Program-made: the position numbers and the translations under genes | Shown: one piece after another, positions 116 to 16,242 of the stretch | Layout of the letters: each line of letters opens with the position of its first letter | Numbering within the stretch: position 1 is the stretch's first letter | Source of the DNA: Halofilum ochraceum | GTDB taxonomy: Bacteria; Pseudomonadota; Gammaproteobacteria; XJ16; Halofilaceae | Length of the DNA stretch: 24,000 nucleotides | Reading direction: 5' to 3' | Assembly: GCF_001614315.2 (NCBI RefSeq) | Contig: NZ_LVEG02000004.1 | Location: 506,668-530,667, forward strand | Notes under the pieces: generated by a model | The model's database searches: none | Seen by the model: only the letters and a program-made list of their open reading frames with translations | What the model was told of the DNA's origin: nothing

Positions 116-904
116 ATGATTGCGGAGGGGGCTGTGGTGCGGAGTTGGCCTGAGCGGATCGGACAATGGCTCGCGCGATATCTGTCGCGATCGCGTGATA
201 TCGGATCGCATCCGGCCACCAGCCCGCCCGGGTTGGTGGCCGCCGCGTTGCGGCCCGGCGATGTGCTGCTCGTGGAAGGGACCAGCCGGCTCAGCTCGGC
301 GATCAAGTACCTGACACAGTCGACCTGGTCACACGCGGCGCTGTATGTCGGCGATGCCATCGATCCGCCAGGCCTGGTGGGCGATCGGCGCACACTGATC
401 GAGGCCGATGTTAACGAGGGCGTTCGCGCGGTTCCATTCAGCCTGTATGCGGGGTATCACACGCGCATCTGCCGCCCGGTCGGGTTGAAGGACTCCGAGA
501 CCGCGCGCGTGTGCGACTACATGATTTCGCGCCTCGGTTACCGGTATGACATGCGCAACGTCTTCGACCTCGCGCGCTACCTGATACAGACGCCGCCCGT
601 GCCGGGGCACTGGAAGCGGCGGATGCTCGCGCTGGGCAGTGGTGACCCCACGCGCGCGATCTGTTCGTCGTTGATCGCGCAGGCGTTCCAGTCGATCCGC
701 TACCCGGTGTTACCGCATGTCGAGCCGGGCACCCACCCGGAGGCCGCCGACGAGATCCACCATATCCGCCACCACAGCCTGTTCGCGCCGCGCGACTTCG
801 ATGTGTCGCCGTATTTCGACGTGATCAAGCCGCGGATCGCGGCGGGTTTCGACTACCGCGAAATCGTCTGGGACGACCGGGAAGGTGCCGGAACGGAGCG
901 ATGA
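116..904 (+). CDS. YaeF/YiiX-type permuted papain-like hydrolase (NlpC/P60 superfamily, C92/DUF830-like)
   Basis: 262-aa ORF with the permuted His-before-Cys layout of this family: PGDVLLVEG...SSAIKYLTQSTWSHAALYVG (His motif), LIEADVNEGVR, RLGYRYD, then AICSSLIAQAF (Cys motif). The start is uncertain because the G-run before ATG 116 is too close to be a good SD. Confidence 0.6.
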   Translation: MIAEGAVVRSWPERIGQWLARYLSRSRDIGSHPATSPPGLVAAALRPGDVLLVEGTSRLSSAIKYLTQSTWSHAALYVGDAIDPPGLVGDRRTLIEADVNEGVRAVPFSLYAGYHTRICRPVGLKDSETARVCDYMISRLGYRYDMRNVFDLARYLIQTPPVPGHWKRRMLALGSGDPTRAICSSLIAQAFQSIRYPVLPHVEPGTHPEAADEIHHIRHHSLFAPRDFDVSPYFDVIKPRIAAGFDYREIVWDDREGAGTER

Positions 905-1027
905 AGCCACTTCGAAGGTTGGCCGCGCCTGCAGCACCGCGATCCGACCGGCATCGTTCCCCGACGCGCCGCCTGATATAAGCAGCGTTCCCTGGTCGGC
1001 AGCCGCATGCGAGCGACGGCGCGCGGT

Positions 1028-1345
1028 TCAGGCGCTCAGGCGGCCGTCGAGATTGGCGAGGAAACGCTGCAGTTCGGCTTCATTGGACAGGTCCCCGTAC
1101 AGCACCGCGGGTTCTCCCCCGTCGCGGACGTGGACCAATGCCGGCGTCGCGAAGATCCCGTACTCGGTGATGCCCCCGGTGTCCTCGAGGAGGTCGACAT
1201 GGCGCACGGTGATATGGTCACTGGCGGTTTCTTCCACGGCTTTCGCCAGGTTGGCACGCGCGCGCAGTGAGCGCGGAGAATTACCCGTCACGAACAGAAC
1301 CAGGTCGGCGCTCGCACCGCTATCCCGATCGTTTCCCGGATTCAT
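1028..1345 (-). CDS. kaiB: KaiB (thioredoxin-like clock/timer protein)
   Basis: 105 aa with KaiB hallmarks: LVLFVTGNSPRSLRARANL, YGIFATPALV, LYGDLSNEAEL. Its ATG (1345..1343) overlaps the kaiC stop (1344..1342) as ATGA, implying translational coupling. Confidence 0.9.
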   Translation of the reverse strand: MNPGNDRDSGASADLVLFVTGNSPRSLRARANLAKAVEETASDHITVRHVDLLEDTGGITEYGIFATPALVHVRDGGEPAVLYGDLSNEAELQRFLANLDGRLSA

Positions 1346-3066
1346 TCCTCGTTCCCCCGGTTTGGGCCGGTCGTTTGATCATCCGCTGCCCGCCGGCGCC
1401 GGATGTCCTGTCGATGCAGATCCGCCTGATGGTTGGCATCGGTATCGCCCTGACGCTCGCGCTCCAGGACCTCGCTGAGGCGCTCGGCCTCGCTCTGTGC
1501 CTCCTGCATGCGCAGCCGCGCCTGTTCGATGTTGCGTTCCAGATCACGCCGGCGCTGTCCCCGTTCCACCTCCGCCCGTCGACTGCGCTCGGCGACCTCA
1601 TGTTCCTTCTGCATCCGGGCGGTACCCATGAGGACCTCGGAGCCGTACTCATAGACATCGGCAAGCGCCACGCCGTCATCCGACAACAGCAGTTCCCGTA
1701 CCTGATTGGAGTGCGCGGAGCCCCGGGATTTCACGATCGACAGGGCACGATTGCGTTCGCCGCCATGGACCCGGTATTCCAGCGAGATCCAGCTGTCGGC
1801 CAGGGTCGATACATGGCTCAGCGTCGATTCCTGCTCCTGGCTCTCGGTATCGATCAGGGACGTCAACAGGATCGTGATGCCCCGTGCGCGCGCCTCGCCA
1901 AGGATCCGCTCGGTGGTCATGTAGGCGCTGTCGGCGCTGGCCGACTTCAGCAGTGCCGAGACCGGATCGATGACCATGCAGTCCGGCTGGAACGCATCGA
2001 GCCAGCGGTGGATGGTGATGAAATGCTCCTCCACCAGCGCGTTCCAGGCCTCGCGCGATTCGATCCTCAGCAGCCCGGAATCGATGCCCGGCTGCAGTTC
2101 GATCCCGACCGAGGCGGCGTTGCGGACGATCCGGTCACCCAGTTCGTCGAAGGTCAGATAGAGCACCCGTTCGCCACGGTCGACCGCCGCCCGCGCGAAA
2201 CCGACCGCGAGCGTCGTTTTCGCGGTCCCGGGCGCGCCGGACACGAGGACGGTGGAGCCCCGATAGATACCGCCACCGAGGATGTGGTCCAGGCGCGGAA
2301 TGCCCATGCCGACACGTTCATACGAAACGGGGGCGTGGCGTGATTGATTGGCTGCGCTATAGGGCAGGTGCAGCCCGGCATCGTCCATGACCATCGGCAA
2401 CTCGTCGGTGACGTGCGCGCTCCCGCGGTACTTCGCGATCCGGAAGCGACGATTCAGGCGCCGCCCCACGAGTTCCGCTGACAGCACCAGCACGGTGGAG
2501 AGCATGAACTCGATGCCCTCGAGATCCAGTGGCCGTGCCGCATCGGCGCTGGCCCGCTTGCCGCTCAGCAGCAGCGTGACGCGGCGCGCTTCGCACCAGT
2601 CGTTGAGATGTCGGATCTGGTCGAGCGCGGCCCGCGCGTCCGGTTCCAGAGACAGCAGTTGATCGATGCCGTCCAGGATCAACCAGCCGCCGCCGAGGTG
2701 ATCGAGACGCTGCCCGGCAATCGCCAGCAGGCCCTCGAGGTCGAAGCCCCCCGAGGCGGTCGCATCCACCGGTGGCCGGCCATCGAGCAGCGCCCACGCA
2801 TCCGATTCGGTGAGGGTCTCACCCCAGTCGAACGAGCCGGCATCCCGCAGAATCTGCGCGGGGGATTCCTCGAATGAGATGAACAGACCGCCATCACCGT
2901 TGGCAATGGCGCTGGCGAGGATCTGCAGTCCGAGTATGGTCTTGCCTGCACCGGGTCCGCCCAGCACAAGCACGCCGCCGGCATCCGGCAGACCGCCGCG
3001 GGTGACGGCGTCGAGCCCGGCGATACCGGTCGGGCGTTTGGTCAGTGGGGTATCCGCTTGCCCCAT
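1342..3066 (-). CDS. kaiC: KaiC, double RecA/DnaB-like ATPase-autokinase with a C-terminal charged helical extension
   Basis: 574 aa with two Walker A motifs: GGPGAGKT (2938..2961) and GAPGTAKT (2215..2238). CI has the catalytic FISFEESP. A Ser-Thr pair in SHVSTLADS (S420/T421, 1804..1809) aligns by eye with cyanobacterial S431/T432. The KSRGSAH arginine-finger region is present. GGAGA SD lies 8 nt before the ATG. The last ~95 aa (1345..1629) are an R/E/Q-rich helix not present in cyanobacterial KaiC. Confidence 0.92.
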   Translation of the reverse strand: MGQADTPLTKRPTGIAGLDAVTRGGLPDAGGVLVLGGPGAGKTILGLQILASAIANGDGGLFISFEESPAQILRDAGSFDWGETLTESDAWALLDGRPPVDATASGGFDLEGLLAIAGQRLDHLGGGWLILDGIDQLLSLEPDARAALDQIRHLNDWCEARRVTLLLSGKRASADAARPLDLEGIEFMLSTVLVLSAELVGRRLNRRFRIAKYRGSAHVTDELPMVMDDAGLHLPYSAANQSRHAPVSYERVGMGIPRLDHILGGGIYRGSTVLVSGAPGTAKTTLAVGFARAAVDRGERVLYLTFDELGDRIVRNAASVGIELQPGIDSGLLRIESREAWNALVEEHFITIHRWLDAFQPDCMVIDPVSALLKSASADSAYMTTERILGEARARGITILLTSLIDTESQEQESTLSHVSTLADSWISLEYRVHGGERNRALSIVKSRGSAHSNQVRELLLSDDGVALADVYEYGSEVLMGTARMQKEHEVAERSRRAEVERGQRRRDLERNIEQARLRMQEAQSEAERLSEVLERERQGDTDANHQADLHRQDIRRRRAADDQTTGPNRGNEE

Positions 3067-3124
3067 GGGTCGACTCTCCGGTTTGCGTGTGTCCGGGCGT
3101 TGCCCGGTTCATCGATCGGGCAGC

Positions 3125-6100
3125 TTAGCCGGCGCCGCCTGCATGCGAAATCGGCAGGTGGGACCGCTGCTCCAGCAGCCAGCGGAAATCCTCCGACTCC
3201 AGCGGCATGCTGTAATAAAAACCCTGACCGATACGGCAGCCCATCCCGAGCAGCGCGTCGCGCTCGGCCGCGCTCTCGACGCCTTCGGCGACGACCTCCG
3301 CGTTCAGGGCACCGGCCACGCCGAGCACGGTGGTCACGATCTGGCGGCTGTAGGGATCTTCCAGCATACGCCGGACGAAGCCCTTATCGATCTTGATCTC
3401 GTCGAATGGATAGCGCTGCAGGTACAGCAGCGACGAATACCCCGTTCCAAAGTCGTCCAGGGACAGGCGTACGCCCATGTCGTGCAGCGTGCGCAGTTGT
3501 TGATTGAGATTCTCCGATTCGCGCTCGAATACACTCTCCGTGATCTCCAGCGTCAGCGCTTGTGGCGGCACATCGTGGCGCTGCAATGCGGAACGCACGG
3601 TCTCCGGGAAATCGCCCACCATGAACTGCACCAGCGAGACGTTGACCGCCACGCGCACGATGTCCAGCTTCGCGTCCTGCCATTCGCGCAGATGCCGGCA
3701 GGCCTCGTTCAGCGCCCAGTCGCCGATCGGGCCGATCAACTGGCTCTGTTCGGCGATCGTGACGAACGTGGCGGGTGAGCGCAGGCCATGTTCGGGGTGA
3801 TACCAGCGCAGCAGCGCCTCGCTCGCGATCAGCTCGCCGGTGTCCAGTCGGACCTTCGGCTGGAAGTGGAGCTGGAATTCATCCCCGGCGAGGGCCTGGC
3901 GCAGTTCCTGCGTGATCTCCACGCGTTGACGCACTTCATGATCGATCGCGCTGGTGTACGCGGTCCAGTAGTTATTGTTGTCGCTCCCCGTGCTCTCGAA
4001 GAGCGCCAGTTCCGCCTCGCGCAGCAGTTCCTCGTGCGCGCGTGGCTCGTCGCCGAGCAGCGTATAGCCGAACCGGGCGGTCACATCGAGCTGCAGACCA
4101 TCAAGTTCGAACGGCTGATCGAAGAGGGCGTCGATCTGCGCGCGCAGCTCCGCGGCGCTCAAGTCCGGGTGTTCCGGCAGATAGACGACGAACTCATCTC
4201 CGCCCACGCGTCCCGCGAGCGCGTCCTCCCCGAGCATCTCGTTGACCCGTTCAGCGACCGTCCGCAGCAGCTGGTCACCGACCGCATAGCCGTGACTGTC
4301 GTTGATATCCCGGTGCCGCTGGATATCGAACATGACGATCATTGCACTCGGTTGCCATCCCAGTTGCCACAGGCGATCCGCCAGTGACTGCACGAAGCCG
4401 TTGCGTGACGGCAGACGGGTGAGAGCGTCCTGGTAGGCCAGCCGATTGAGTTCCTGCTCGGCCAGTTTGCGTTCCGTGATGTCCACGTGCATGACGACCG
4501 CGCCGGATACGAGTTCGCCACCCAGACGGTTGGCCATCATCCGGAACCAGCGCGCACGGTCGGGGGCGTGACACGGGTACTCCAGGACAAACGTCTCGCG
4601 CTCGCCATTCAGCACATCGGCAAGTCCGGTGCGGGCCTCCGCCGCTTCGTCGGCGCAATCGCCGGTTGCACCATCGCAGATCCGGAGATAGTTCTGTCCG
4701 ACCCCGGTTTCGGGGTCGGGGTTGGCGTTCTCCATACCGAAGTGGCGCCACTGCCGATTGACGTCCCGTATCGTGCCGTCTGCATCGAGCAGCGCGATAT
4801 GGGCGGGCAATGCGTTGATCAGCATCTGCCGCGTTTCGAGCGTCGCGGCCAACTCGTCACGCGACACACGGAGTTCTTCCTCCCGGTTGCGGAGCTGTTC
4901 CTCCATCCTGCGGCGTTCGGTGACGTCGCGGAAATACACGGCCAGTCCCTCTTCGGTCGGGTAGGCCCGGATATCGAACCAGATTTCGAGTGGTTCGTAG
5001 TATTCCTCGAGCGCGACGGTGACGCGCTCGCGCATCGCGCGCCGGTATTCCCGCTCGATCGGCGTGCCCACCGCCGCCGGAAATTCCGTCCATACATGCT
5101 TGCCGACGAGCTCGGCGTGACCGCGCCCGAGCAGGTCGCCGGCCGCGCTGTTGACGTAATCGAAGCGCCACTCCGGTGTCAGGGTGAAAAAGGCGTCGCT
5201 GATGCTCTCGAGGACATTCGCAAGCCGTGCATTGATGCGTTCCAGCTCCTCGTCGGCTTCCTTGTTCGCGGATATATCCTGGAACGCGCCCTGTACGCAG
5301 TAGATCCGGCCGCTCAGGTCGTGGACCGGCTCGGCCACGACCCGGACCCAGACCCGTTGCCCGTGGGCATCGAGGATCTGCATTTCTTCGTCATAGGCGA
5401 TGCCGTTTTCGGCACACGCGGTAAAGCGTGCGCGCATGGCCTCGCGGTATTCGGGCGCATAGAACGCCAATCCCTCATCGACCGTGGGCGCATAGCCTGC
5501 CGGCATGCCGTGAATCTCCGCGACCATGTCCGACCAGTGAATCCGAGCGCTGTCGAGGTCCACCCACCAGCCGCCGAACCGCGCGACCCGGCCGGCCATA
5601 TCGAGCAGCTGCGCCTGCTCGCGCAGCGTCTCCTCGGCGTGGCGGACGTCGGTGAGGTCGGTCATGACCGCGCCGATATTCTGTCCTTTGCCCTCGCTCG
5701 CCGTGATCGGGAAATACCGGATCAGGAAATGACGCGTGCCGAGATGCGCGTAGGTGCGATCGCCCTCGAAACTCAGCGATTCCCCGGCGAGGCAGCGATC
5801 GAGTCGCGGCACGACTTCGCGGTCGTAGAACTCACGGCTGAGGATATCGAGCAGATGCAGTCCTTCAATCGACTCCCGGGTCAGCCCGTAGAGTGCCGCG
5901 TAGCCGTCATTGGCGAGCACGTAGTGATGACTCGAATCGATCACGCAGAATAAATCGCTGCCGGACTCGATCAGATGGTGGTATTGCCGGAGTCGCTGCT
6001 CCACCTTGTGCCACTCGGTAATGTCCTGGATCGTTCCCGTGAGCGCGACGGTATTGCCCGACGCGTCGGTCTCGGTTTCGGCGAGTTCATGGACCCGGCG

Positions 6101-7144
6101 GGTCGATCCATCTGGGCGGACGATACGGAACTCGAAATCGTGCCGGAGATTTTCGTCCCGCAGGCGAGTGCGCACGTCCAGCAGATGGGCGCGATCGTCA
6201 GGGTGCACGAGCTCCAGAAACGCCTCTGGCGTCGGTTCTCCCAGCGCGGGGTCGAGTCCCAGGATGCGGAAGGTCTCCTCCGACCACTCGAGGCGGTCTT
6301 CGTGGACCATGAGGCGCCAGCTGCCGATCTGCGCAATGCGCTGTGAGTCGATCAGCATCCGCTCGCGATCCTCCAGGGCCCGTTGTTGCGCCGCGATGCG
6401 GTCGTCGGCTGCGTCACGCTCGTCGAGCAGCCGGTTGAAGGCATCGGCGAGGCGCGAGAGTTCGTTGTCGCCACGACCGGCGGCGCGCAGGCCGGACTCC
6501 CCCGCGCGGATCCGGTCGATCGTGCTCGCCAACTCCTGTATGGGCCCACCCATGCGGCGATGGATCAGCCCGAATGCGGCCAGCGACAGTATTCCGAACG
6601 ACAGCGCCGCCGCGGCGAAGCTGCCGGCGATCCACATCGCATCGGTGGCGATACCCTGCTGGCGGTCGCGCAGCAGCTGATACAGGGCCGTGTCGAGTGC
6701 GACGCCGTGGCTGGCGACGCGGTCCATGAGGCTCCGCGCGCGCGGTGAGATATCCAGCGCTCCGGGGGCGTTCGACTCCGCCGGCTCCGTTACCGGTTCC
6801 GTCGCCAACGCGTTGGCATCCGCAAGCGCCTCGATCATCCGATCGATTTCCTGGGCGGCGGCCTGGGCCGCCGGGTATTCGTCGCCCATGGCGCGCAACT
6901 CCCTGCGAAGCGACGCCGCACGGGTGCGGAAAGCGCCATCGCTTTGCTGGTCGGCTCCGAGCAGGAGTTGGCGGTCACTCGCGGCGGACAGATCGTCGAG
7001 GCGTTTTTGCAGCTCGATCAGTTCGACGAGCTCGGCCTGCCTCGCTCGCATATCGTCATACGCGATCAGGCCGATCAGCAGCAGCGCGGCCAGGCCGGTT
7101 ACGCAGCCGGCAATACTGACATTGGATAGGCGCGCCAGTTTCAT
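3125..7144 (-). CDS. Membrane-anchored HAMP / 5xPAS / GGDEF / EAL c-di-GMP synthase-phosphodiesterase
   Basis: Longest ORF is 3125..7153 (1342 aa). I prefer ATG 7144 (MKLARL...) because GGGGGA lies ~8 nt upstream of it, whereas 7153 abuts that G-run. The protein has two TM segments flanking a ~140-aa helical periplasmic region, then a HAMP-like segment and five PAS-like cores (e.g. IGSWRL..EWSEETFRILG, LFCVIDSSHHYVLAN, FGGWWVDL..IHWSD, DAFFTLTPEWRFDYVN, AHIALLDADGTIRDVN). GGDEF motif RVGGDEFVVY is at 4190..4204. EAL motifs are EALLRW (3812..3820), EITE, DDFGTGYSS, KIDK, EGVE and QGF. Confidence 0.9.
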   Translation of the reverse strand: MKLARLSNVSIAGCVTGLAALLLIGLIAYDDMRARQAELVELIELQKRLDDLSAASDRQLLLGADQQSDGAFRTRAASLRRELRAMGDEYPAAQAAAQEIDRMIEALADANALATEPVTEPAESNAPGALDISPRARSLMDRVASHGVALDTALYQLLRDRQQGIATDAMWIAGSFAAAALSFGILSLAAFGLIHRRMGGPIQELASTIDRIRAGESGLRAAGRGDNELSRLADAFNRLLDERDAADDRIAAQQRALEDRERMLIDSQRIAQIGSWRLMVHEDRLEWSEETFRILGLDPALGEPTPEAFLELVHPDDRAHLLDVRTRLRDENLRHDFEFRIVRPDGSTRRVHELAETETDASGNTVALTGTIQDITEWHKVEQRLRQYHHLIESGSDLFCVIDSSHHYVLANDGYAALYGLTRESIEGLHLLDILSREFYDREVVPRLDRCLAGESLSFEGDRTYAHLGTRHFLIRYFPITASEGKGQNIGAVMTDLTDVRHAEETLREQAQLLDMAGRVARFGGWWVDLDSARIHWSDMVAEIHGMPAGYAPTVDEGLAFYAPEYREAMRARFTACAENGIAYDEEMQILDAHGQRVWVRVVAEPVHDLSGRIYCVQGAFQDISANKEADEELERINARLANVLESISDAFFTLTPEWRFDYVNSAAGDLLGRGHAELVGKHVWTEFPAAVGTPIEREYRRAMRERVTVALEEYYEPLEIWFDIRAYPTEEGLAVYFRDVTERRRMEEQLRNREEELRVSRDELAATLETRQMLINALPAHIALLDADGTIRDVNRQWRHFGMENANPDPETGVGQNYLRICDGATGDCADEAAEARTGLADVLNGERETFVLEYPCHAPDRARWFRMMANRLGGELVSGAVVMHVDITERKLAEQELNRLAYQDALTRLPSRNGFVQSLADRLWQLGWQPSAMIVMFDIQRHRDINDSHGYAVGDQLLRTVAERVNEMLGEDALAGRVGGDEFVVYLPEHPDLSAAELRAQIDALFDQPFELDGLQLDVTARFGYTLLGDEPRAHEELLREAELALFESTGSDNNNYWTAYTSAIDHEVRQRVEITQELRQALAGDEFQLHFQPKVRLDTGELIASEALLRWYHPEHGLRSPATFVTIAEQSQLIGPIGDWALNEACRHLREWQDAKLDIVRVAVNVSLVQFMVGDFPETVRSALQRHDVPPQALTLEITESVFERESENLNQQLRTLHDMGVRLSLDDFGTGYSSLLYLQRYPFDEIKIDKGFVRRMLEDPYSRQIVTTVLGVAGALNAEVVAEGVESAAERDALLGMGCRIGQGFYYSMPLESEDFRWLLEQRSHLPISHAGGAG

Positions 7145-7578
7145 GCAGGTCATCCCCCGTTACAGGGGGCACGCTCGACCCTTCGCTGCGCGGTCGTTGT
7201 CTGCCAGCAACGCGGCGGTTGGCGGGAGGTAGAGGACAATGACAGGACTCATGCGCTTCGTTGCTGGCAATGTATCGCGCAGGGCTGGTAGTGTCTATTT
7301 GCCACGCGACCCGTTCAGGGTTTATACCCACTCCCTTTGCGCGAGATCGCGCTGCGTGATCTGAAGAAACCGTAACTATGCCGCTCCGGTGTCGCCTGGT
7401 ATGCTTCAGCGTTCGGCGCTCGCATTCTGACATGCGCAGTGTGGATGCCGGCTTGTACCGGATCCATTGAGCAGAATCCGGGGCGTGTGCACTCGCCGTA
7501 AAGATCCTTCATCACGCTCAATCCGGACCATTACCGCTGGCCGCAGCGGATTCCAGCCTTGCGATGGAGTGTTGAACA

Positions 7579-8577
7579 ATGCTGCCGTGCCCACGCAGCC
7601 GGGGAGTGATTCGTTCGTCCAGCCCTCGGTGCCTTTCGGCCCTCATTGTCGCGACCATTGCCTTGACGCTCGGCGGCTGTGCATGGACGTCGGGCAGTCA
7701 GGCACTGACGGTCGACGAGTACCGCACGCTCGAGGAGCGCTGGGCCGACGAACGCGAGCGGCGGCTGAAGGCCCTGCTGGATGAGCGGATCGAGCCGCTA
7801 CTCGAACACGAGGAACGTCTCGGTACGCTCGAGCGGCGTTCGGAACGGATCCTGGTCGGACTGCGTGAACTCGAGGCGGCCCAGCGGCGCGCGAATCGGG
7901 AGGAGCGGGCCGATGACAGCGGAGGAGACGGCGATGAATCGAACGCGTCCGGGGACGACGGAAACAATGGCGCGGGCAGCGGCGAAGGCGAAGGCAAGGG
8001 CGAAGATGGCCCCGATCTGGAGCGCGATCCGAATGCGCTGACATCCGGTGAACCGCTGATTTTTGGTGCAAAGGAATGCATTGCACTGCCGGAACAGGAG
8101 CTCGTACTGCGCGCGCGGATCGATTCCGGTGCGAATACGGCCTCACTGGCCGCCGTCGATATCGAACAGTTCGAGCGCGACGGCGATCCCTGGGTTCGCT
8201 TTCGGATTCCGCGCGCCGGTTCAGGTGACGAGGCCGCGTCCGGCGCGGAGGATGGCGCCGGTGAGGATGAGGACGTATTCGAAGAAGTCATGGATGCGGT
8301 CGAGTCCGCGGCCGAGGCCGAGAATGAAGAGGAGGTGGGCGTGCGGGTCGAGGCCGAGGTCCAGCGCCGGGTCACCATCATCCAGGCGTCAGGGGAAGAT
8401 GAACGTCCGGTGATACGCCTGCCGACGCGGATCGGTCCGCTCGAACGACGGGTCGAGTACACGCTCGCCGATCGCGGACATTTGACCTACGGAGTCCTGC
8501 TCGGGCGGCGCTTTCTGCAGGATCTCGCCGTGATCGATGTGGCCCGCGAGTACGTTCAGCCTTGTCCGCCGCGCTGA
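7579..8577 (+). CDS. Retropepsin-like aspartic peptidase family protein (DUF785/COG4067, RimB-like), predicted lipoprotein with acidic inserts
   Basis: 332 aa. Signal peptide plus lipobox LTLGG-C (Cys34, 7678..7680). Family core: ECIALPE..LRARIDSGANTASL (D-S-G at 8122..8130), FERDGDPWVRF, LADRGHLTYGVLLGRRFL. Two D/E/G-rich low-complexity inserts lie at ~7909..8028 and ~8212..8334. GGAG lies 10 nt before the ATG. Confidence 0.75.
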   Translation: MLPCPRSRGVIRSSSPRCLSALIVATIALTLGGCAWTSGSQALTVDEYRTLEERWADERERRLKALLDERIEPLLEHEERLGTLERRSERILVGLRELEAAQRRANREERADDSGGDGDESNASGDDGNNGAGSGEGEGKGEDGPDLERDPNALTSGEPLIFGAKECIALPEQELVLRARIDSGANTASLAAVDIEQFERDGDPWVRFRIPRAGSGDEAASGAEDGAGEDEDVFEEVMDAVESAAEAENEEEVGVRVEAEVQRRVTIIQASGEDERPVIRLPTRIGPLERRVEYTLADRGHLTYGVLLGRRFLQDLAVIDVAREYVQPCPPR

Positions 8578-8587
8578 GTGATCGGGC

Positions 8588-10114
8588 ATGCGCGTACCGA
8601 CACTGATCCTGGTCGCACTTGGACTCATCGCGTCGGGTCTGGGTCACAGCGTCTATCGCCATATCGAGCAGGGCGTTCCGCTGCTGCCAGGGGCGAGCGA
8701 GACCTTCTGGGATGTCGAGGCGCGCGTGCGCCTGGAGGCGGAGGAAGGACCGGTCCGCGTACGCCTGGCGGTGCCGGACGATCCGCCGGGTTTTGCCCTG
8801 CGCAGTGAGCACACCGCATCGCCGGGGTACGGGCTGCAGTTCCTCGATGATGGGCAACGGCGTGCCGAATGGACAACGCGGGAGACCGAGGGGCTGCAGG
8901 TCCTCTATTACCGCGCCCAGTTCCGGGCGGTCGAGGGTGAATCCGGCGGGCCGCCGGCACGGAAAGATCCGGAGAAACCCGCCTCCACCGGGACCGTGTC
9001 TTCGTGGCGACCGGCCTTGCAGATTGCCGCCAATGAACTCCTCGCGTCCGCCTACGCCGCCTCGGTCGACGCCTTCAGTCTGGCGGCGGCACTGAGTCGA
9101 CGCCTGCAGGATAACGGCAATCAGAACGCCCGCCTCTTGCTGAGCGAAGCGGATCCGCCGGATGCGCTCGTGCGCCTGTTGGCGCAGGCGGATGTTCCGG
9201 CTCGTGTGGTCCAGGCGCTCGAACTCGAGGATGGTCGGCGTCGGCAGGATCTGCGCTCCATCGTGCGCGTGTTTGGTGACGGCGGCTCGCGGTTGTTTGA
9301 CCCGGTCGCGGGCGGTCGGGCGGATACCAGTCGGCTGCTGCTGTGGGAAGGCAGTGGTGGCCCGGTCCTCGAGGTCGAGGGCGGGCAGGACTCGGACGTC
9401 AGCTTCTCGATTCTCGAGACCCGTCGCCCCGCGGCCGTGGTCGCTCGCGACGAGGGCATCAGCGAAGGTCTGTTCAACCTCTCGATCTACAGCCTGCCCA
9501 TCTCCGAGCAGACCATCTTCAAAAGCATCCTGCTGCTGCCGTTGGGTGCACTGGTCGTCGTGTTCTTCCGGGTGTTCGTCGGTCTGCAGACCTCGGGGAC
9601 CTTTATGCCGGTACTCATCGCGCTGGCGTTCATCAAGATGTCCCTGCTGACCGGTCTCGTGACGTTCCTGCTGGTGATCGGCGGTGGCCTGGTGCTCCGC
9701 CAGGCGCTGGCCCATCTCAATCTGCTGCTCGTCGCGCGCGTGTCCGTGGTCATCGTCTGTGTCATCGGGCTGGTCGCGCTGCTGTCCGTGCTCAGCTTCC
9801 ATCTCGGGTTCGCTGATGCCCTGCAGATGCCCTTTTTCCCGATGATCATCATCGCGTGGACGATCGAGCGGTTGTCGATCCTCTGGGAAGAAGAGGGTGC
9901 GCACGAGGTGTTTATCCAGGGCGGCGGCAGTCTGATTACGGCGATCGCCGCGTATCTGGTGATGCAGCAGCCCTGGGTGCAGTATTGGATGTTCAACTTC
10001 CTTGGCCTGCAGCTCGTGGTGCTCGCCCTGATCATCCTCGTCGGCAGCTATACCGGCTATCGCCTGAGCGAGATGTGGCGGTTCCGCACTTTCTGGAAAC
10101 GCGCTGATGCCTGA
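8588..10114 (+). CDS. Inactive transglutaminase-like domain fused to 7 TM helices (7TM-transglut family membrane protein)
   Basis: 508 aa: an N-terminal TM, a ~290-aa extracytoplasmic domain, then ~7 hydrophobic helices (from LLLPLGALVVVFF to LQLVVLALIILVG) with the GTFMPVLIALAF-type motif I associate with this family. The only Cys in the whole protein is inside a TM helix, so a Cys-His-Asp transglutaminase triad is impossible. Starts 10 nt after the upstream stop and overlaps the downstream gene by 8 nt. Confidence 0.7.
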   Translation: MRVPTLILVALGLIASGLGHSVYRHIEQGVPLLPGASETFWDVEARVRLEAEEGPVRVRLAVPDDPPGFALRSEHTASPGYGLQFLDDGQRRAEWTTRETEGLQVLYYRAQFRAVEGESGGPPARKDPEKPASTGTVSSWRPALQIAANELLASAYAASVDAFSLAAALSRRLQDNGNQNARLLLSEADPPDALVRLLAQADVPARVVQALELEDGRRRQDLRSIVRVFGDGGSRLFDPVAGGRADTSRLLLWEGSGGPVLEVEGGQDSDVSFSILETRRPAAVVARDEGISEGLFNLSIYSLPISEQTIFKSILLLPLGALVVVFFRVFVGLQTSGTFMPVLIALAFIKMSLLTGLVTFLLVIGGGLVLRQALAHLNLLLVARVSVVIVCVIGLVALLSVLSFHLGFADALQMPFFPMIIIAWTIERLSILWEEEGAHEVFIQGGGSLITAIAAYLVMQQPWVQYWMFNFLGLQLVVLALIILVGSYTGYRLSEMWRFRTFWKRADA

Positions 10115-11087
10115 ATGGTCGCGGCGGCTGCGCGAGCAGGGCGTGGTGGGCCTGAACGAGCGCAATCTCGAGTACATCAACCGCGCCAATGGCCGTCGGC
10201 ACTTCCCGCTTGTCGACGACAAGCTGCGGACGAAACGCCTCGCGCAACGTTACGGCGTCGCCGTGCCGGAACTGCTGGGTGTCATCCGTGGCAATCACGA
10301 GGTCCGCCGCCTCGAACAGATCATCCCCGGCGATCGCGGTTTTGCGATCAAACCGGCCCGGGGCAGCGGCGGCAAGGGCATCCTCGTGATCGCGTCCCAC
10401 GGTGATGGCTGGTTCCGGAAAGGGTCAGGGGAATGGCTGCCGCGCCGCCGCGTCGTGCGGTACCTGTCCAACCTGCTCGCCGGTCTGTATACGCTCGGGG
10501 GGACGCCCGATGTGGCCATGGTGGAGGCCCTGGTCGAGATCGAACCGGAATTCGCGGCGTTCAGTCATGCCGGGGTCCCGGACATCCGTATCGTCGTGTA
10601 CCAGGGCTATCCGGTGATGGCCATGATGCGCCTGTCCACGGCGGCTTCCGATGGCAAGGCCAACCTGCATCAGAATGCCATCGGTGTGGGTCTGGATATT
10701 GCCCGTGGCGAGCCGGTGCATGCCGTGCAGAAGAACCGACGCGTAAGCCATCATCCGGACACGGGGCAGCGGCTCGATGAACTGCGGATCAGCGACTGGG
10801 AGGCCATGCTCATACAGGCGGCAAACTGTTTCGAGATGACCGGACTCGGCTTCCTCGGCGCGGATATGGTGCTCGACCGCCGGCACGGGCCCTTACTGCT
10901 CGAGTTGAATGCGCGCCCCGGGCTATCCATCCAGCTGGCGAACGGTATCGGGCTCGCTCCGCGGCTGCAGTGTATTCGTGATCGTGAGGCCGAGCGCGTA
11001 GAGGCGGACCGCCCTGTCTACACAGCGCAGGAACGCGTCGCCTTCGCGCGCGCCCGGTTCACGGGCACGAACGACGTCCTTCCCTGA
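10107..11087 (+). CDS. RimK-related ATP-grasp enzyme (alpha-L-glutamate ligase-like protein, TIGR02291-type)
   Basis: 326 aa. N-terminal GLNERNLEYINRAN..FPLVDDKL.TK signature, ATP-grasp nucleotide loop FAIKPARGSGGKGILVI, and later GADMVLD...LLLELNARPGL. Overlaps the 7TM gene by 8 nt (ATG 10107, upstream stop 10112..10114). Confidence 0.8.
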   Translation: MPEWSRRLREQGVVGLNERNLEYINRANGRRHFPLVDDKLRTKRLAQRYGVAVPELLGVIRGNHEVRRLEQIIPGDRGFAIKPARGSGGKGILVIASHGDGWFRKGSGEWLPRRRVVRYLSNLLAGLYTLGGTPDVAMVEALVEIEPEFAAFSHAGVPDIRIVVYQGYPVMAMMRLSTAASDGKANLHQNAIGVGLDIARGEPVHAVQKNRRVSHHPDTGQRLDELRISDWEAMLIQAANCFEMTGLGFLGADMVLDRRHGPLLLELNARPGLSIQLANGIGLAPRLQCIRDREAERVEADRPVYTAQERVAFARARFTGTNDVLP

Positions 11088-12299: not shown

Positions 12300-13127
12300 T
12301 CAGCGCAGCGTCTCGATCGAGTCGAGCGCCTGGCGTATCGACGCGGTATTGCCTGACAATTCCTCCTGCAGTTCCACGCGGAGCCGGGCGATACTGCTGG
12401 CCCGGTTGAGTTCGCCGCTGAGCTGGATCAGCTGTTTGACGCCCTGGCCGGAAACGACGCGTTGCGAGACGCGGCCGCTGCCGGGGATATCGAGCGCCAG
12501 GTTCATGCCGTGCTCGCCTGCGGATATCTCGACACTCGATCCGTTGGTGCCATGGAGCGCGACATCGGTATTGTTCGCGTCCGAGCCGGAAGCGGGGTGG
12601 TCCATGTGCTCGACGACGTCGATCCGCATGTCGTTGACGCCGCTGTTGGCGTCCCCGGCGACCTGAACGCGTTGCACGATCCCGTTCCCGTTGTTGTTGC
12701 CGTTGCCGGGACTGCGATTACCCGACTCCCCGGGAGTGACCGAGCCACCACCGTTTTTAGCCGGATGGGTGCCGTCGGGTTTCGAGTCTGATGGGTTTTT
12801 GATCGCCATGGTCGGGGTGAACTCCACCTTCGGCTCCGACGAACTCATATCGACGCGGAAGTCGACACCGCCACGTACAATTTCACCTGTTTCCGATTGT
12901 ATTTGACTCGCCATTCGCAGGCCAAAACGGACGACCTTGCCGCCCTGGACGAAGCGCCCGCGCTGGTTGGCGAGTTCATGCTCCGGGACCACCTGTGCCG
13001 CGTCCAGGGTTGGTGTTGCCGGCCGTTCCCCCTCGGGGGCAGCGACGGCCGCCTGGACTGAGCATGCCGCGACGATCAGCAGGGCGCCCCTTGCGGTTCC
13101 CCGATTACTGAGTTTTCGCCATTGCAT
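12300..13127 (-). CDS. fapE: Secreted protein in the FapE position, carrying two FapB-like repeat segments
   Basis: The ORF extends to 13169. The internal ATG 13127 has GGAGA 7 nt upstream and starts a signal peptide (MQWRKLSNRGTARGALLIVAACSVQAAVA|AP). It contains a G/N/S/P-rich central region plus GIVQRVQVAGDANSGVNDMRIDVV (12612..12683) and GVKQLIQLSGELNRASSIARLRV (12375..12443). The symbol is assigned by synteny and repeat similarity. Confidence 0.55.
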   Translation of the reverse strand: MQWRKLSNRGTARGALLIVAACSVQAAVAAPEGERPATPTLDAAQVVPEHELANQRGRFVQGGKVVRFGLRMASQIQSETGEIVRGGVDFRVDMSSSEPKVEFTPTMAIKNPSDSKPDGTHPAKNGGGSVTPGESGNRSPGNGNNNGNGIVQRVQVAGDANSGVNDMRIDVVEHMDHPASGSDANNTDVALHGTNGSSVEISAGEHGMNLALDIPGSGRVSQRVVSGQGVKQLIQLSGELNRASSIARLRVELQEELSGNTASIRQALDSIETLR

Positions 13128-13174
13128 CACCGATTCTCCGAAATTCTGTGACAGCGCCCGTGACTCCACCGTTC

Positions 13175-13969
13175 TCAGAAGATCTCCGTGTGCCGGATGC
13201 CGAAGCCGATCGTCTGGGCCTCGGGCACCGGTGCATAGATATCGTGGAGGCGGCGGGCGGAGAGTGTTCGCCTGGGTTTCAGCAGAGCCGTATCCTCATC
13301 GAATCCCGGCCCGATCACCGCGAAAACGATGCCGTTCCAGGCGTCAACAAAATCCTCCAGCGCCATGGTGCGGTTCCCGAGCGCCGGATCACCCACGAAT
13401 ACACGCTCGCCCTCGACCTGGCGAACGACGACGAAATGCCGGTAGCCCTCGATGTCGACGAGGGCGATGGTCGGGATCTTGATGTCGCCCAGGGTATCGG
13501 CCGCTACGCGATAGCCGCGCCCGCGCATGCCAATGCCCTCGACGAAATTCTTGAGATCGAGCAGTGAAAATCCCTGCTTGCGGACCTTCTCGCGGTCCGC
13601 GACTTGGAACAGTCCTTTGAGGATGCGTTTTTCCGTGGCCCCGTTCCGATCGTATGCGTAACGCAGGATGGTCGCGAGTGCCGCGGCCCCGCAGGAGAAG
13701 TCGGTCTGCTGCTCGACCAGCTGCGCATACTTGCGCTCGCGCATCGATTCCACTTCCTTGTCGGCCAGGTCCCCGACGGGGAGATTGCCCCCCATCGGGA
13801 CCCGGGCTGTATGGCCCGTCAGTGGCCAGGACAGCAGGAGCGCCACAAGCCCGCAGCAGGCGAGGATCGTTCCCCACCGCGCGGGCCTGCCGGCGCGTCC
13901 CGCGAAAACAGGCTCGACCCGGCCGCCCGAAGGCGACCGGGCCGAGGTTGGCAGGGTTGCCGTTTTCAT
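13175..13969 (-). CDS. fapD: Periplasmic C39-family cysteine peptidase (FapD)
   Basis: The ORF extends to 14023, but ATG 13969 (GGAAG upstream) precedes a hydrophobic anchor (WGTILACCGLVALLLSW). C39 motifs: QQTDFSCGAAALATIL (catalytic Cys), GYRHFVVVRQV (His), VFVGDPALG (Asp). It holds the fourth position of the operon, as fapD does. Confidence 0.8.
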   Translation of the reverse strand: MKTATLPTSARSPSGGRVEPVFAGRAGRPARWGTILACCGLVALLLSWPLTGHTARVPMGGNLPVGDLADKEVESMRERKYAQLVEQQTDFSCGAAALATILRYAYDRNGATEKRILKGLFQVADREKVRKQGFSLLDLKNFVEGIGMRGRGYRVAADTLGDIKIPTIALVDIEGYRHFVVVRQVEGERVFVGDPALGNRTMALEDFVDAWNGIVFAVIGPGFDEDTALLKPRRTLSARRLHDIYAPVPEAQTIGFGIRHTEIF

Positions 13970-13985
13970 GACGGCTTCCCGAACC

Positions 13986-14005
13986 CGTGGTATCCGGCTA
14001 CCACG
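13986..14005 (-). other. Small stem-loop immediately 3' of the fapC stop
   Basis: CGTGGTA-tccggc-TACCACG (plus-strand reading): 7-bp stem, 6-nt loop, starting 1 nt after the fapC stop codon (14007..14009). No U-tract. Confidence 0.3.
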
Positions 14006-14006
14006 A

Positions 14007-15149: not shown

Positions 15150-15170
15150 CGCTCTGTCTCCCCTTGGTTG

Positions 15171-15809: not shown

Positions 15810-15810
15810 G

Positions 15811-16179: not shown

Positions 16180-16222
16180 GGCAGTCGTATTGCGCCGGTA
16201 AGCCGTTGTTGCCGACCGTGTC

Positions 16223-16237
16223 GCAAACGCCGTGCCA
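16223..16237 (-). promoter_or_regulatory. Sigma-54 (RpoN) -24/-12 promoter of the fap operon
   Basis: The minus strand reads TGGCAC-GGCGT-TTGC, an exact match to the TGGCAC-N5-TTGC consensus with correct GG/GC spacing. It ends 43 nt upstream of the fapA ATG (16179), and a sigma-54 EBP gene lies immediately upstream. Confidence 0.75.
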
Positions 16238-16242
16238 CTACG

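What the first reader, a model, noticed from the sequence alone, without database searches (positions are those of the whole stretch)
1028..7153. KaiA-less kaiC-kaiB pair directly downstream of a 5xPAS-GGDEF-EAL enzyme: candidate timer-to-c-di-GMP module
Seen: kaiC and kaiB overlap by ATGA. kaiC starts 58 nt after the stop of the co-oriented 1339-aa TM-HAMP-5xPAS-GGDEF-EAL gene. That gap holds only a 6-bp hairpin (3093..3107) with no U-tract, so a three-gene transcript is plausible. The window has no kaiA, no SasA/CikA-type histidine kinase and no RpaA-type regulator. The GGDEF (RVGGDEFVVY) and EAL (EALLRW, EITE, DDFGTGYSS, KIDK, EGVE, QGF) motifs all look catalytically intact, and there is no RxxD I-site upstream of GGDEF. 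Established: cyanobacterial KaiABC signals through histidine kinases, and KaiA-less KaiBC pairs in purple bacteria act as environmentally reset hourglass timers. Inference: here the timer's partner, either as PAS-mediated input or as output, is a c-di-GMP synthase/phosphodiesterase. That would gate c-di-GMP by time of day or energy state. I do not know of this coupling having been shown experimentally.
Basis: partly seen in the sequence, partly recalled or inferred. Interest (0 to 1): 0.8.

Follow-up and report, generated by a model that had tools for sequence, protein, structure and literature searches.

The report
Conserved c-di-GMP phosphodiesterase–kaiC–kaiB operon
A membrane sensor enzyme that breaks down the bacterial signal c-di-GMP is encoded in one tightly packed three-gene unit with a KaiA-less KaiC/KaiB timer, and this unit is kept in all 52 related salt-loving bacteria checked, which makes a timer-to-c-di-GMP link a testable hypothesis.

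Summary
On the minus strand of a Halofilum ochraceum window lie a 1342/1339-aa TM-HAMP-5xPAS-GGDEF-EAL gene, a 58-nt gap with no terminator, kaiC (574 aa), and kaiB overlapping kaiC by ATGA.

The adjacency is not chance. In 52 of 52 genomes whose KaiC is at least 45% identical, a GGDEF-EAL gene sits directly upstream of kaiC-kaiB. These span about 20 genera, nearly all halophiles. The median gap is 30 nt, and no flanking gene is shared.

KaiC is closest to Rhodobacter sphaeroides KaiC, the KaiA-independent hourglass type, and it has the long C-terminal helix. Its CII P-loop and catalytic pair are non-canonical.

The EAL motifs are invariant. The GGDEF signature is degenerate in 28 of 49 orthologues, and the phosphate-binding K/R motif is absent even here. 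The conserved output is therefore c-di-GMP hydrolysis, not synthesis.

Precedents exist. A 2011 gene-context survey noted GGDEF/EAL genes next to kaiCB, and cyanobacterial KidA (PAS-GGDEF-EAL) binds KaiB.

This is a new variant of a known kind. Physical coupling, its direction and any timer function are inferred, not shown.

The parts
7269..7297 (-). Only sigma-70-like promoter match in 800..7700 (TAGACA-17-TACATT), 116 nt upstream of the first ATG of the sensor gene. It lies in the 425-nt divergent intergenic region 7154..7578.
   Evidence: This is a consensus match only: 1 site found against 1.1 expected in shuffles, so the evidence is weak.
3125..7153 (-). Sensor GGDEF-EAL gene. It is 1342 aa from the ATG at 7153, or 1339 aa from the ATG at 7144.
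6404..7153 (-). N-terminal module, aa 1-250. It comprises TM1, a helical extracytoplasmic segment of about 140 aa, TM2, and HAMP (aa 196-244).
   Evidence: Pfam HAMP. The hydrophobic segments at aa 12-31 and 173-196 were read from the translation. Among the loci readable in the output, many clade-1 partners have a 30-52% identical counterpart of this module.
4469..6346 (-). Five PAS domains at about aa 288-378, 395-505, 535-625, 648-749 and 780-896.
   Evidence: each segment scores above a Pfam PAS cut-off. The number and type of PAS domains vary between orthologues, from 0 to at least 5.
3989..4438 (-). GGDEF domain (aa 906-1055). The RVGGDEF signature is intact and there is no RxxD I-site. 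The YxAKxxGRN (K442/R446) motif is lost.
3203..3910 (-). EAL domain (aa 1082-1317) with the full catalytic motif set.
   Evidence: 236 bits. One search shows the motifs are invariant across the clade-1 partners whose EAL domain is complete in the fetched DNA.
3067..3124 (-). 58-nt gap between the sensor gene and kaiC. It holds a small hairpin (3093..3107) with no U-tract, and a GGAGA ribosome-binding site before the kaiC ATG.
   Evidence: z = 0.39, no terminator.
1342..3066 (-). kaiC (574 aa). CI has a canonical P-loop (GGPGAGKT) and an EE pair. CII has GAPGTAKT and D307-E308. The phosphosites are T415, S420 and T421.
1378..1638 (-). KaiC C-terminal extension (aa 477-563), predicted as one continuous helix. 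It aligns with the coiled-coil stalk of R. sphaeroides KaiC.
   Evidence: 8DBA alignment runs to residue 573. (AlphaFold helix H477-563; block-mean pLDDT 64-87 over residues 491-560, 76-87 over 491-540).
1028..1345 (-). kaiB (105 aa). Its start overlaps the kaiC stop in ATGA.
   Evidence: best solved relative is KaiB of R. sphaeroides, 8FWJ, E = 5e-6.
905..1027 (.). Convergent intergenic region that ends the unit. The next gene (116..904, +, Peptidase_C92) points towards kaiB.

Best explanation
The three genes form one operon (sensor phosphodiesterase, then kaiC, then kaiB) that works as a single signalling module.

**Proposed mechanism**
- KaiC is a KaiA-independent, C-terminally extended KaiC of the kind characterised in Rhodobacter sphaeroides.
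- With KaiB it would act as a slow ATPase/phosphorylation switch that reports elapsed time or cellular ATP/ADP state.
- Its partner is a membrane-anchored HAMP-PAS-GGDEF-EAL protein, instead of the PAS histidine kinase that follows kaiB in other proteobacterial kaiCB operons.
- The partner's conserved catalytic activity is c-di-GMP hydrolysis by the EAL domain.
- The divergent GGDEF domain most likely serves as a regulatory or GTP-sensing domain rather than a cyclase.
- The proposed flow is: the Kai state, through KaiB and/or KaiC binding to the cytoplasmic part of the enzyme, is combined with the enzyme's own periplasmic and PAS inputs. Together they set phosphodiesterase activity, and hence c-di-GMP-controlled behaviour such as motility versus attachment.

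**Shown here**
- Gene structure.
- Conservation of the operon.
- Co-inheritance of the three genes.
- Domain and motif states.
- Relatedness to R. sphaeroides KaiC and KaiB.

**Inferred**
- Co-transcription.
- Physical interaction.
- The direction of signalling.
- Timer behaviour.
For: **Operon conservation**
- Among the 80 kaiC loci fetched from species-representative genomes, all 52 with KaiC at least 45% identical have an EAL-containing gene on the same strand directly upstream, and kaiB downstream.
- The distance from the partner stop to the kaiC start has a median of 30 nt. It is at most 60 nt in 49 of 52 loci, and the genes overlap in 11 of 52.
- kaiC and kaiB overlap by 4 nt in 40 of 52 loci.
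- None of 13 other window genes recurs next to the cassette.
- The KaiC, KaiB, EAL and GGDEF distance matrices correlate (Mantel r = 0.80-0.91).
- The hosts span about 20 genera: Halomonas, Marinobacter, Wenzhouxiangella, Halochromatium, Aquisalimonas, Spiribacter, Rhodovibrio, Limimonas, Haliea and others. Two bins are assigned to Trueperaceae.

**Independent recurrence of the Kai/c-di-GMP link**
- In a second KaiC clade (about 40% identity), the gene after kaiB is a PAS-(GAF)-GGDEF-EAL protein in at least 6 loci. In others it is a PAS hybrid histidine kinase or a Crp-like regulator.
- In 8 of the 52 clade-1 loci, tblastn shows a GGDEF-containing gene on the same strand after kaiB. Pfam scans of three of these show stand-alone GGDEF cyclases with unrelated sensor domains: PAS, MASE6 and GAF.

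**Enzyme state**
- The EAL motifs are invariant, and mean EAL identity is 63%, above KaiC's 56%.
- The GGDEF signature is degenerate in 28 of 49 partners, and the K442/R446 motif is absent in all.

**KaiC and KaiB**
- The best solved relative of KaiC is 8DBA (R. sphaeroides KaiC, E = 1e-88), aligned through the tail.
- AlphaFold predicts a single helix over aa 477-563.
- The best solved relative of KaiB is R. sphaeroides KaiB.

**Transcription signals**
- There is no terminator or significant structure in the 58-nt gap.

**Precedent**
- KidA, a PAS-GGDEF-EAL protein, binds fold-switched KaiB (PMC9478674).
- c-di-GMP levels alter the S. elongatus clock (PMC13001216).
Against: - No transcript, interaction or activity data exist for this module.
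- The CII domain of this KaiC clade departs from characterised KaiCs. Its P-loop is PGT[A/S]K[T/S] instead of GxGK[T/S], and it has F-D-E instead of F-E-E. Autokinase or timer behaviour may therefore differ or be absent.
- No common docking domain was identified. PAS content varies from none to at least five domains, and the best-conserved PAS type is not kai-specific.
- Some sensor-less GGDEF-EAL paralogues, 46-57% identical, occur without kai genes.
- The 52 loci probably descend from one ancestral cassette. They show long-term retention, not 52 independent events.
- The Mantel correlations would also arise from shared vertical descent.
Confidence: 0.55

Rival explanations
1. Input or modulator model, as for KidA. 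The sensor protein acts on the Kai switch, for example by binding or sequestering KaiB in response to periplasmic or PAS signals. This would reset or tune KaiC, and c-di-GMP turnover would be a parallel or secondary activity.
For: - KidA tunes the cyanobacterial oscillator through PAS-domain binding to fold-switched KaiB, and its GGDEF/EAL domains are not needed for that effect (PMC9478674).
- The window protein has sensory modules: an extracytoplasmic segment, HAMP and five PAS domains.
Against: - The most conserved part of the partner is the EAL catalytic domain, with every catalytic motif invariant. The sensory part is freely exchanged, and some orthologues lack PAS entirely.
- That pattern is expected if the enzymatic output matters to the module.
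Confidence: 0.2
2. Co-expression only. The genes share an operon because both serve the same physiological condition, such as salt, energy or oxidative stress as reported for the Legionella kai operon. There would be no direct Kai-enzyme contact, and KaiC would not act as a timer.
For: - The cassette is almost confined to halophiles.
- The CII catalytic residues are non-canonical.
- No shared docking domain was found.
Against: - Tight spacing and start/stop overlaps persist down to 45% KaiC identity.
- Diguanylate cyclases with different sensors recur after kaiB.
- GGDEF-EAL and histidine-kinase partners are swapped at the same position in a second clade.
- Two decayed loci have lost or broken kaiC and have also damaged the partner gene.
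- All four points fit a dedicated partnership better than shared regulation.
Confidence: 0.15
3. Reverse coupling through the nucleotide. Local c-di-GMP, pGpG or GTP set by the enzyme would be sensed by KaiC, whose CII site is non-canonical, or by KaiB. c-di-GMP would then be an input to the switch.
For: - Changing c-di-GMP levels shifts the period and phase of the S. elongatus clock through unidentified factors (PMC13001216).
- The CII P-loop (Ala or Ser in place of the Gly before Lys) and the D-E pair are conserved oddities.
Against: - The same CII oddities occur in clade-2 KaiCs that are paired with histidine kinases or Crp-like regulators, so they are not tied to c-di-GMP partners.
- No c-di-GMP-binding motif was identified.
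Confidence: 0.07
4. The adjacency is a chance arrangement peculiar to this genome.
For: None beyond the prior that GGDEF-EAL genes are numerous in gammaproteobacteria. Extra copies are seen in many flanks.
Against: - 52 of 52 loci conserve the order, the strand and the short spacing, while all other neighbours differ.
Confidence: 0.01

Closest known systems
KaiBC hourglass timer of Rhodobacter sphaeroides (KaiC_RS/KaiB_RS; Pitsawong et al. 2023, PMC10076222; PDB 8DBA, 8FWJ)
   Same: - There is no KaiA.
- KaiC has two domains and a long C-terminal helical extension. 8DBA is the best solved match and aligns through the tail (E = 1e-88).
- AlphaFold predicts a helix over aa 477-563.
- The adjacent kaiB has KaiB_RS as its best solved relative.
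   Different: - The phosphosite pair is Ser-Thr (S420/T421), not Ser-Ser.
- The CII P-loop is GAPGTAKT, against GVAGAGKS in KaiC_RS.
- The catalytic pair is D-E, not E-E.
- The operon partner is an upstream GGDEF-EAL enzyme.
- Biochemical behaviour has not been tested.
Non-cyanobacterial kaiC-kaiB gene contexts with a downstream PAS histidine kinase or GGDEF/EAL protein (De Luca et al. 2011, PMC3164672)
   Same: - A kaiC-kaiB pair is clustered with a signalling protein.
- That survey explicitly lists GGDEF/EAL proteins as one neighbour class.
- I recovered that arrangement (kaiC-kaiB-PAS-GAF-GGDEF-EAL) in loci L056, L058, L060, L064, L066 and L068.
   Different: - Here the enzyme is upstream of kaiC, membrane-anchored through HAMP, and belongs to a distinct orthologous group.
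- Its EAL is 56-91% identical within the group, against 39-46% to the downstream type.
- The arrangement defines a separate KaiC clade.
- I found no description of this arrangement in the searchable library.
KidA of Synechococcus elongatus (4xPAS-GGDEF-EAL; Kim et al. 2022, PMC9478674)
   Same: - It has a multi-PAS plus GGDEF plus EAL architecture.
- It is the experimental precedent that such a protein contacts the Kai system, through PAS domains binding fold-switched KaiB.
   Different: - KidA was found by pull-down with KaiB rather than by gene neighbourhood, and it works with a KaiABC oscillator.
- Its enzymatic domains are dispensable for the period effect.
- Sequence relatedness of KidA to this protein was not tested, because no KidA sequence was available to the tools.
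- The partner here is membrane-bound.
GGDEF-EAL phosphodiesterases with a non-cyclase GGDEF domain (for example MorA of P. aeruginosa, PDB 4RNF; Caulobacter PdeA/CC3396, cited from memory)
   Same: - MorA is the best solved relative of the GGDEF-EAL junction region (E = 1e-27).
- The EAL site is complete.
- The GGDEF domain lacks residues needed for GTP phosphate binding, which fits a regulatory role.
   Different: - None of these proteins is known to be linked to Kai proteins.
- The GGDEF signature itself is still intact in the H. ochraceum protein, so residual cyclase activity cannot be excluded.

Membership tests
KaiC (double-domain RecA-superfamily clock ATPase/kinase) | Two tandem KaiC/RecA-like domains (CI and CII) | tested here: met
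   Pfam PF06745 matches in two stretches, 228 bits. The AlphaFold model shows two alpha/beta domains.
KaiC (double-domain RecA-superfamily clock ATPase/kinase) | CI Walker A GxxxxGK[ST] and the catalytic Glu-Glu pair | tested here: met
   GGPGAGKT and SFEES are present.
KaiC (double-domain RecA-superfamily clock ATPase/kinase) | CII Walker A GxxxxGK[ST] | tested here: not met
   The motif is GAPGTAKT, with Ala at the Gly that precedes Lys. All 80 fetched loci have Ala or Ser there. KaiC_RS has the canonical Gly.
KaiC (double-domain RecA-superfamily clock ATPase/kinase) | CII catalytic Glu-Glu pair (E318/E319 of S. elongatus) | tested here: not met
   The sequence is TFDEL, that is D307-E308. 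The Asp at the first position is invariant in the family. Part of the distant clade has D-S.
KaiC (double-domain RecA-superfamily clock ATPase/kinase) | Phosphorylation sites equivalent to S431/T432 (and T426) | tested here: met
   S420 and T421 are invariant in the 14-sequence alignment. The [VIA]-S-T motif is kept in 79 of the 80 loci; L076 reads S-S. T415 lies at the T426 position.
KaiC (double-domain RecA-superfamily clock ATPase/kinase) | Slow ATPase and autokinase/autophosphatase activity | not testable with these tools
   This needs purified protein.
C-terminally extended, KaiA-independent KaiC (KaiC_RS type / kaiC2 subgroup, PMC10076222) | C-terminal extension of about 50 aa or more forming a long helix (coiled-coil stalk) | tested here: met
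   The alignment to 8DBA runs to residue 573. AlphaFold predicts a helix over aa 477-563. All 14 aligned relatives are 564-599 aa long.
C-terminally extended, KaiA-independent KaiC (KaiC_RS type / kaiC2 subgroup, PMC10076222) | Ser-Ser phosphosite pair reported for the kaiC2 subgroup | tested here: not met
   The pair is Ser-Thr (S420/T421).
C-terminally extended, KaiA-independent KaiC (KaiC_RS type / kaiC2 subgroup, PMC10076222) | Dodecamer assembly and ATP/ADP-reset hourglass behaviour | not testable with these tools
   This needs biochemistry or structure determination.
KaiB | KaiB domain, encoded next to kaiC | tested here: met
   Pfam PF07689 scores 33.2 bits against a cut-off of 27. The best solved relative is KaiB_RS, 8FWJ, E = 5e-6. 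The ATGA overlap with kaiC is read. Fold switching was not testable.
EAL c-di-GMP phosphodiesterase | Full catalytic motif set (EAL, N, ExxE, DDFGTGYSS, KxD, EGVE, QG[FY]) | tested here: met
   All motifs are present in the window protein. They are invariant in the clade-1 partners whose EAL domain is complete.
GGDEF diguanylate cyclase (active) | GG[DE]EF signature with the preceding Arg, plus the Mg/guanine-binding Asp, Asn and Asp | tested here: met
   RVGGDEF is present, and MFD..IND..GD is read from the alignments. However, the signature is degenerate in 28 of 49 orthologues.
GGDEF diguanylate cyclase (active) | GTP phosphate-binding Lys and Arg of the YxAKxxGRN motif (PleD K442/R446) | tested here: not met
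   The window protein reads ALFESTGSDNN where MorA reads AMYHAKEMGKNN. The motif is absent in all 49 orthologues. Residue numbering in PleD is from memory.
GGDEF diguanylate cyclase (active) | RxxD inhibitory site five residues before GGDEF (not obligatory for membership) | tested here: not met
   The position reads GEDA.
KidA-like Kai-interacting PAS-GGDEF-EAL protein | Multi-PAS plus GGDEF plus EAL architecture | tested here: met
KidA-like Kai-interacting PAS-GGDEF-EAL protein | Direct binding to fold-switched KaiB, and sequence orthology to KidA | not tested
   Binding needs an experiment.
Proteobacterial kaiC-kaiB-PAS histidine kinase operon | Histidine kinase gene immediately downstream of kaiB | tested here: not met
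   The gene downstream of kaiB is a convergent Peptidase_C92 gene. No HisKA/HATPase_c domain was found in the scanned window ORFs.

The most novel reading that the evidence does not exclude
In many halophilic bacteria a KaiA-less KaiC/KaiB switch may directly gate a membrane c-di-GMP phosphodiesterase, and in some lineages a cyclase encoded after kaiB as well. The motile-versus-sessile decision would then be scheduled by elapsed time or energy state.

This would be the first defined output pathway of a non-cyanobacterial Kai system. It would use a second messenger instead of a two-component phosphorelay.
Probability: 0.3. Interest if true: 0.8.

Novelty: new variant of a known kind. Interest (0 to 1): 0.6.

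Why it matters
**The open question it addresses**
- What KaiBC systems outside cyanobacteria control is largely unknown.
- The R. sphaeroides and R. palustris work defined the timer but not its output.

**What this cassette offers**
- It is a compact, strongly conserved three-gene unit.
- The only non-Kai gene is a c-di-GMP phosphodiesterase, which gives a concrete, assayable output candidate.
- It occurs in cultivable genera such as Halomonas and Marinobacter.
- It extends the single cyanobacterial precedent (KidA) to a gene-neighbourhood rule.
- The exchange of histidine-kinase, GGDEF-EAL and Crp-like partners at kaiCB loci suggests that Kai switches are modular front-ends for different signalling outputs.

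**Other consequences**
- The conserved non-canonical CII active site marks a KaiC lineage whose biochemistry may differ from every KaiC studied so far.
- If the coupling proves to be only co-expression, the finding reduces to an annotation note.

Tried and rejected
1. **'Kai-partner PAS' idea: rejected.**
   - The last PAS domain (aa ~768-895) is 59-63% identical in the single-PAS Halomonas partners.
   - It is 36-50% identical to the first PAS of the proteins encoded after kaiB in the distant clade. That suggested a dedicated docking domain.
   - A motif scan (EYPCHxPxxxRWF) of metagenome contigs gave 120 loci, and only 7 have kai genes nearby.
   - The unlinked domains are as similar to this PAS (median 40%, maximum 56%) as the linked ones (43-49%).
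   - 22 of the 52 clade-1 loci give no match to this PAS type. The Aquisalimonas partners show no PAS-region match at all.
2. **Exact-sequence look-up of KaiC.** It found nothing on record. The organism was identified from the homology search instead.
3. **Homology search with the 143-aa PAS domain alone.** It returned only 10 short fragments and was uninformative.
4. **Riboswitch or other known RNA.** Rfam gave no match at E ≤ 1 anywhere in the window, including the leader and the gap.
5. **Terminator or stable structure in the 58-nt gap.** None was found.
6. **Repeats in 900..7600.** Only chance-level matches were found.
7. **Conserved wider neighbourhood.** None was found.
8. **Strict exclusivity of the partner family.** It is not met. 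Of 7 atypical or short GGDEF-EAL homologues looked up:
   - 1 is linked to kaiCB;
   - 2 are decayed kai loci;
   - 1 is followed by IS elements;
   - 3 are sensor-less copies with no kai genes nearby.
9. **Loza-Correa 2014 (Legionella kai operon).** The paper is not held in the library.

Full report
**What is in the window**

The window is from Halofilum ochraceum: the KaiC translation is 100% identical to an NCBI protein of that species. It has 62-70% G+C.

Three co-oriented genes lie on the minus strand.
- A sensor gene, 7153..3125.
- kaiC, 3066..1342, 574 aa.
- kaiB, 1345..1028, 105 aa.

The sensor gene gives 1342 aa from the first ATG.

The kaiC stop and the kaiB start overlap in ATGA.

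The sensor gene and kaiC are 58 nt apart.
- The terminator scan finds nothing there.
- The gap folds no better than shuffled sequence (z = 0.39).

The unit is bounded upstream by a 425-nt divergent intergenic region. This region holds the only sigma-70-like match of the whole stretch (7297..7269; weak evidence). Downstream it is bounded by a convergent Peptidase_C92 gene. Rfam finds no known RNA anywhere in the window.

**Domains**

For the sensor protein, Pfam gives HAMP, PAS, GGDEF (96 bits) and EAL (236 bits).
- Scanning five segments separately confirms five PAS domains.
- The N-terminus has two hydrophobic segments flanking about 140 residues, followed by HAMP.

KaiC has two KaiC-domain stretches (228 bits). 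KaiB passes the Pfam cut-off (33 bits against 27).

No KaiA, histidine-kinase or receiver domain was found in the other large ORFs of the window.

**Is the adjacency meaningful?**

An alignment of 14 KaiC relatives was used to fetch kaiC loci from one genome per species. At least 582 relatives were found and the best 80 were kept. tblastn with the window's domains gave the following.
- Every one of the 52 loci with KaiC at least 45% identical carries an EAL-containing gene directly upstream of kaiC on the same strand, and kaiB downstream.
- The distance from the partner's stop to the kaiC start has a median of 30 nt. It is at most 60 nt in 49 of 52 loci, and the genes overlap in 11 of 52.
- kaiC and kaiB overlap by 4 nt in 40 of 52 loci.

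Three further results point the same way.
- None of 13 other window genes recurs beside the cassette, so the conserved block is exactly these three genes.
- The distance matrices of KaiC, KaiB, EAL and GGDEF correlate (Mantel r = 0.80-0.91). This fits co-inheritance, although shared vertical descent would also produce it.
- The carriers are almost all from saline or soda environments. They include Halomonas/Vreelandella, Marinobacter, Wenzhouxiangella, Halochromatium, Thiohalocapsa, Aquisalimonas (two copies), Spiribacter, Arhodomonas, Nitrincola, Methylohalomonas, Thioalkalivibrio, Haliea and Kineobactrum. They also include the alphaproteobacteria Rhodovibrio and Limimonas, and two bins labelled Trueperaceae. 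Bin assignments were not checked.

Chance adjacency is excluded.

**Independent support for a Kai/c-di-GMP link**

In the more distant KaiC clade (about 40% identity, L053-L080) the order is kaiC, kaiB, then a partner.
- The partner is a PAS-(GAF)-GGDEF-EAL protein in at least six loci.
- It is a PAS hybrid histidine kinase in at least six others.
- It is a Crp-like regulator in two.
- In L064, kaiB overlaps the start of the GGDEF-EAL gene.

So different signalling outputs are exchanged at kaiCB loci.

In eight of the 52 clade-1 loci, tblastn shows a GGDEF-containing gene on the same strand after kaiB. Pfam scans of three of these show stand-alone cyclases with strong GGDEF scores and unrelated sensor domains: PAS, MASE6 and GAF.

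Two decayed loci were also seen.
- One has a truncated EAL domain and internal deletions in kaiC.
- The other, from a Halofilum bin, has kaiC deleted, a remnant of kaiB, and the partner spread over several reading frames.

**What the enzyme does**

The EAL catalytic motifs are invariant in every clade-1 partner whose EAL domain is complete in the fetched DNA. EAL is the best-conserved part of the cassette, with mean pairwise identity of 63% against 56% for KaiC.

The GGDEF domain is the least conserved, at 43%.
- Its signature is intact in only 21 of 49 partners. It is degenerate in 28, with forms such as SGDQF, TGDQF, GGDQF, GSDEF and SGNKF.
- The window protein keeps RVGGDEF and the upstream Asp, Asn and Asp.
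- At the YxAKxxGRN motif, which supplies the GTP phosphate-binding Lys and Arg (PleD K442/R446, numbering from memory), it reads FESTGSDNN (alignment to MorA 4RNF).
- No orthologue keeps that motif.

The conserved activity of this family is therefore c-di-GMP hydrolysis. The GGDEF domain is more likely regulatory. Residual cyclase activity in H. ochraceum cannot be excluded.

**What kind of KaiC this is**

The best solved relative is R. sphaeroides KaiC (8DBA, E = 1e-88), aligned across the C-terminal extension. AlphaFold predicts one helix over residues 477-563. In the R. sphaeroides protein, that extension forms a coiled coil joining two hexamers. It makes the protein KaiA-independent, and the system is an hourglass reset by ATP/ADP (PMC10076222). 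KaiB's best solved relative is the R. sphaeroides KaiB.

There are differences from the R. sphaeroides protein.
- The phosphosites are Ser-Thr (S420/T421, invariant in the aligned relatives).
- The CII P-loop is GAPGTAKT and the catalytic pair is D307-E308. In all 80 loci the residue before the P-loop Lys is Ala or Ser.
- CI is canonical.

Timer-like chemistry is thus plausible, but it is not guaranteed for this lineage.

**How the parts might connect**

I tested whether one PAS type is the Kai docking module.
- The last PAS (aa ~768-895) is the conserved one in single-PAS partners. It resembles the first PAS of clade-2 partners.
- The idea failed. The same PAS type is common in unlinked kinases and cyclases: 113 of 120 metagenome loci with the motif have no kai genes nearby.
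- The unlinked copies are equally similar to this PAS.
- 22 of the 52 clade-1 loci give no match to it, and the Aquisalimonas partners show no PAS-region match at all.

What is constant is the GGDEF-EAL core. Any direct contact is therefore more likely there, or the coupling is indirect.

The reverse test shows the partner family is a distinct group.
- Members are at least 44% identical (365-783 bits), against at most 42% for generic GGDEF-EAL proteins.
- The group is not strictly kai-bound. Three sensor-less copies lie elsewhere in their genomes.

**Comparison with the literature**

- De Luca et al. 2011 (PMC3164672) surveyed kaiC contexts. [quoted passage not shown]
- Kim et al. 2022 (PMC9478674) found that KidA, a 4xPAS-GGDEF-EAL protein, binds fold-switched KaiB and tunes the S. 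elongatus clock. They also remarked on PAS genes next to kaiBC in other bacteria.
- Yamaguchi et al. 2026 (PMC13001216) showed that c-di-GMP levels shift the period and phase of that clock.
- Searches for KaiC together with GGDEF, c-di-GMP, diguanylate cyclase, EAL domain or Halomonas found no description of the upstream-phosphodiesterase cassette. They found no experiment on such a module outside cyanobacteria. The library does not cover most subscription journals.

**Verdict**

There is a real, conserved Kai plus c-di-GMP-enzyme module.
- Its conserved output is a phosphodiesterase.
- The coupling has published precedents.
- PAS-mediated contact is not supported.
- Timer function and the direction of signalling remain inferred.
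- It is a new variant of a known kind and a good experimental target.

Noticed in passing
window 2220-2243 and 2143-2157 (kaiC CII P-loop and catalytic pair); also L001-L080: The CII domain has Ala or Ser in place of the Gly that precedes the P-loop Lys (PGT[A/S]K[T/S]), and F-D-E in place of F-E-E. Part of the distant clade has F-D-S. This holds in all 80 fetched loci, whereas R. sphaeroides KaiC is canonical. The lineage may have altered CII nucleotide chemistry.
   Followed up: partly
L015 12098-13015, L001 12479-13576, L021 12023-13039: In related cassettes a fourth gene after kaiB encodes a stand-alone diguanylate cyclase with unrelated sensor domains (PAS, MASE6, GAF). In L021 it overlaps the end of kaiB. 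tblastn suggests such a gene in 8 of 52 loci. It is absent from this window.
   Followed up: partly
L201 3880-7306; L202 1977-6626: Two decayed cassettes were seen. L201 has a truncated EAL domain fused to kaiC fragments, with kaiB intact. L202 (a Halofilum bin) has the partner spread over several frames, kaiC deleted, and only the last 37 residues of kaiB. These could be true pseudogenes or assembly errors.
   Followed up: partly
L053 12045-12875; L059 12047-13066: In two distant kaiC-kaiB loci the gene overlapping the end of kaiB encodes a Crp-like regulator (cNMP-binding domain plus HTH). This is a third partner class, besides histidine kinases and GGDEF-EAL proteins.
   Followed up: no
L001 and L002 (Aquisalimonas lutea, two contigs): One genome carries two copies of the cassette. 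In both, the partner is a 694-aa N-terminal/HAMP-GGDEF-EAL protein with no PAS-region match.
   Followed up: no
window 7155-7170: A hairpin CCCCC-TGTAAC-GGGGG abuts the first ATG of the sensor gene. Its 3' arm is the likely ribosome-binding site for the second ATG at 7144, so it could occlude translation initiation.
   Followed up: no
window 7579-11087 (+): Three co-oriented genes encode a tandem 'ATP-dependent zinc protease' domain protein, an inactive transglutaminase fused to 7 TM helices, and a sugar-transfer-associated ATP-grasp enzyme. They are divergent from the Kai cassette and are not conserved next to it elsewhere.
   Followed up: no
window 12300-17841 (-): A run of four genes comprises a Peptidase_C39-like protein and three proteins with no Pfam match (289, 380 and 244 aa). 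It lies next to a sigma-54 activator that has no detectable receiver domain.
   Followed up: no
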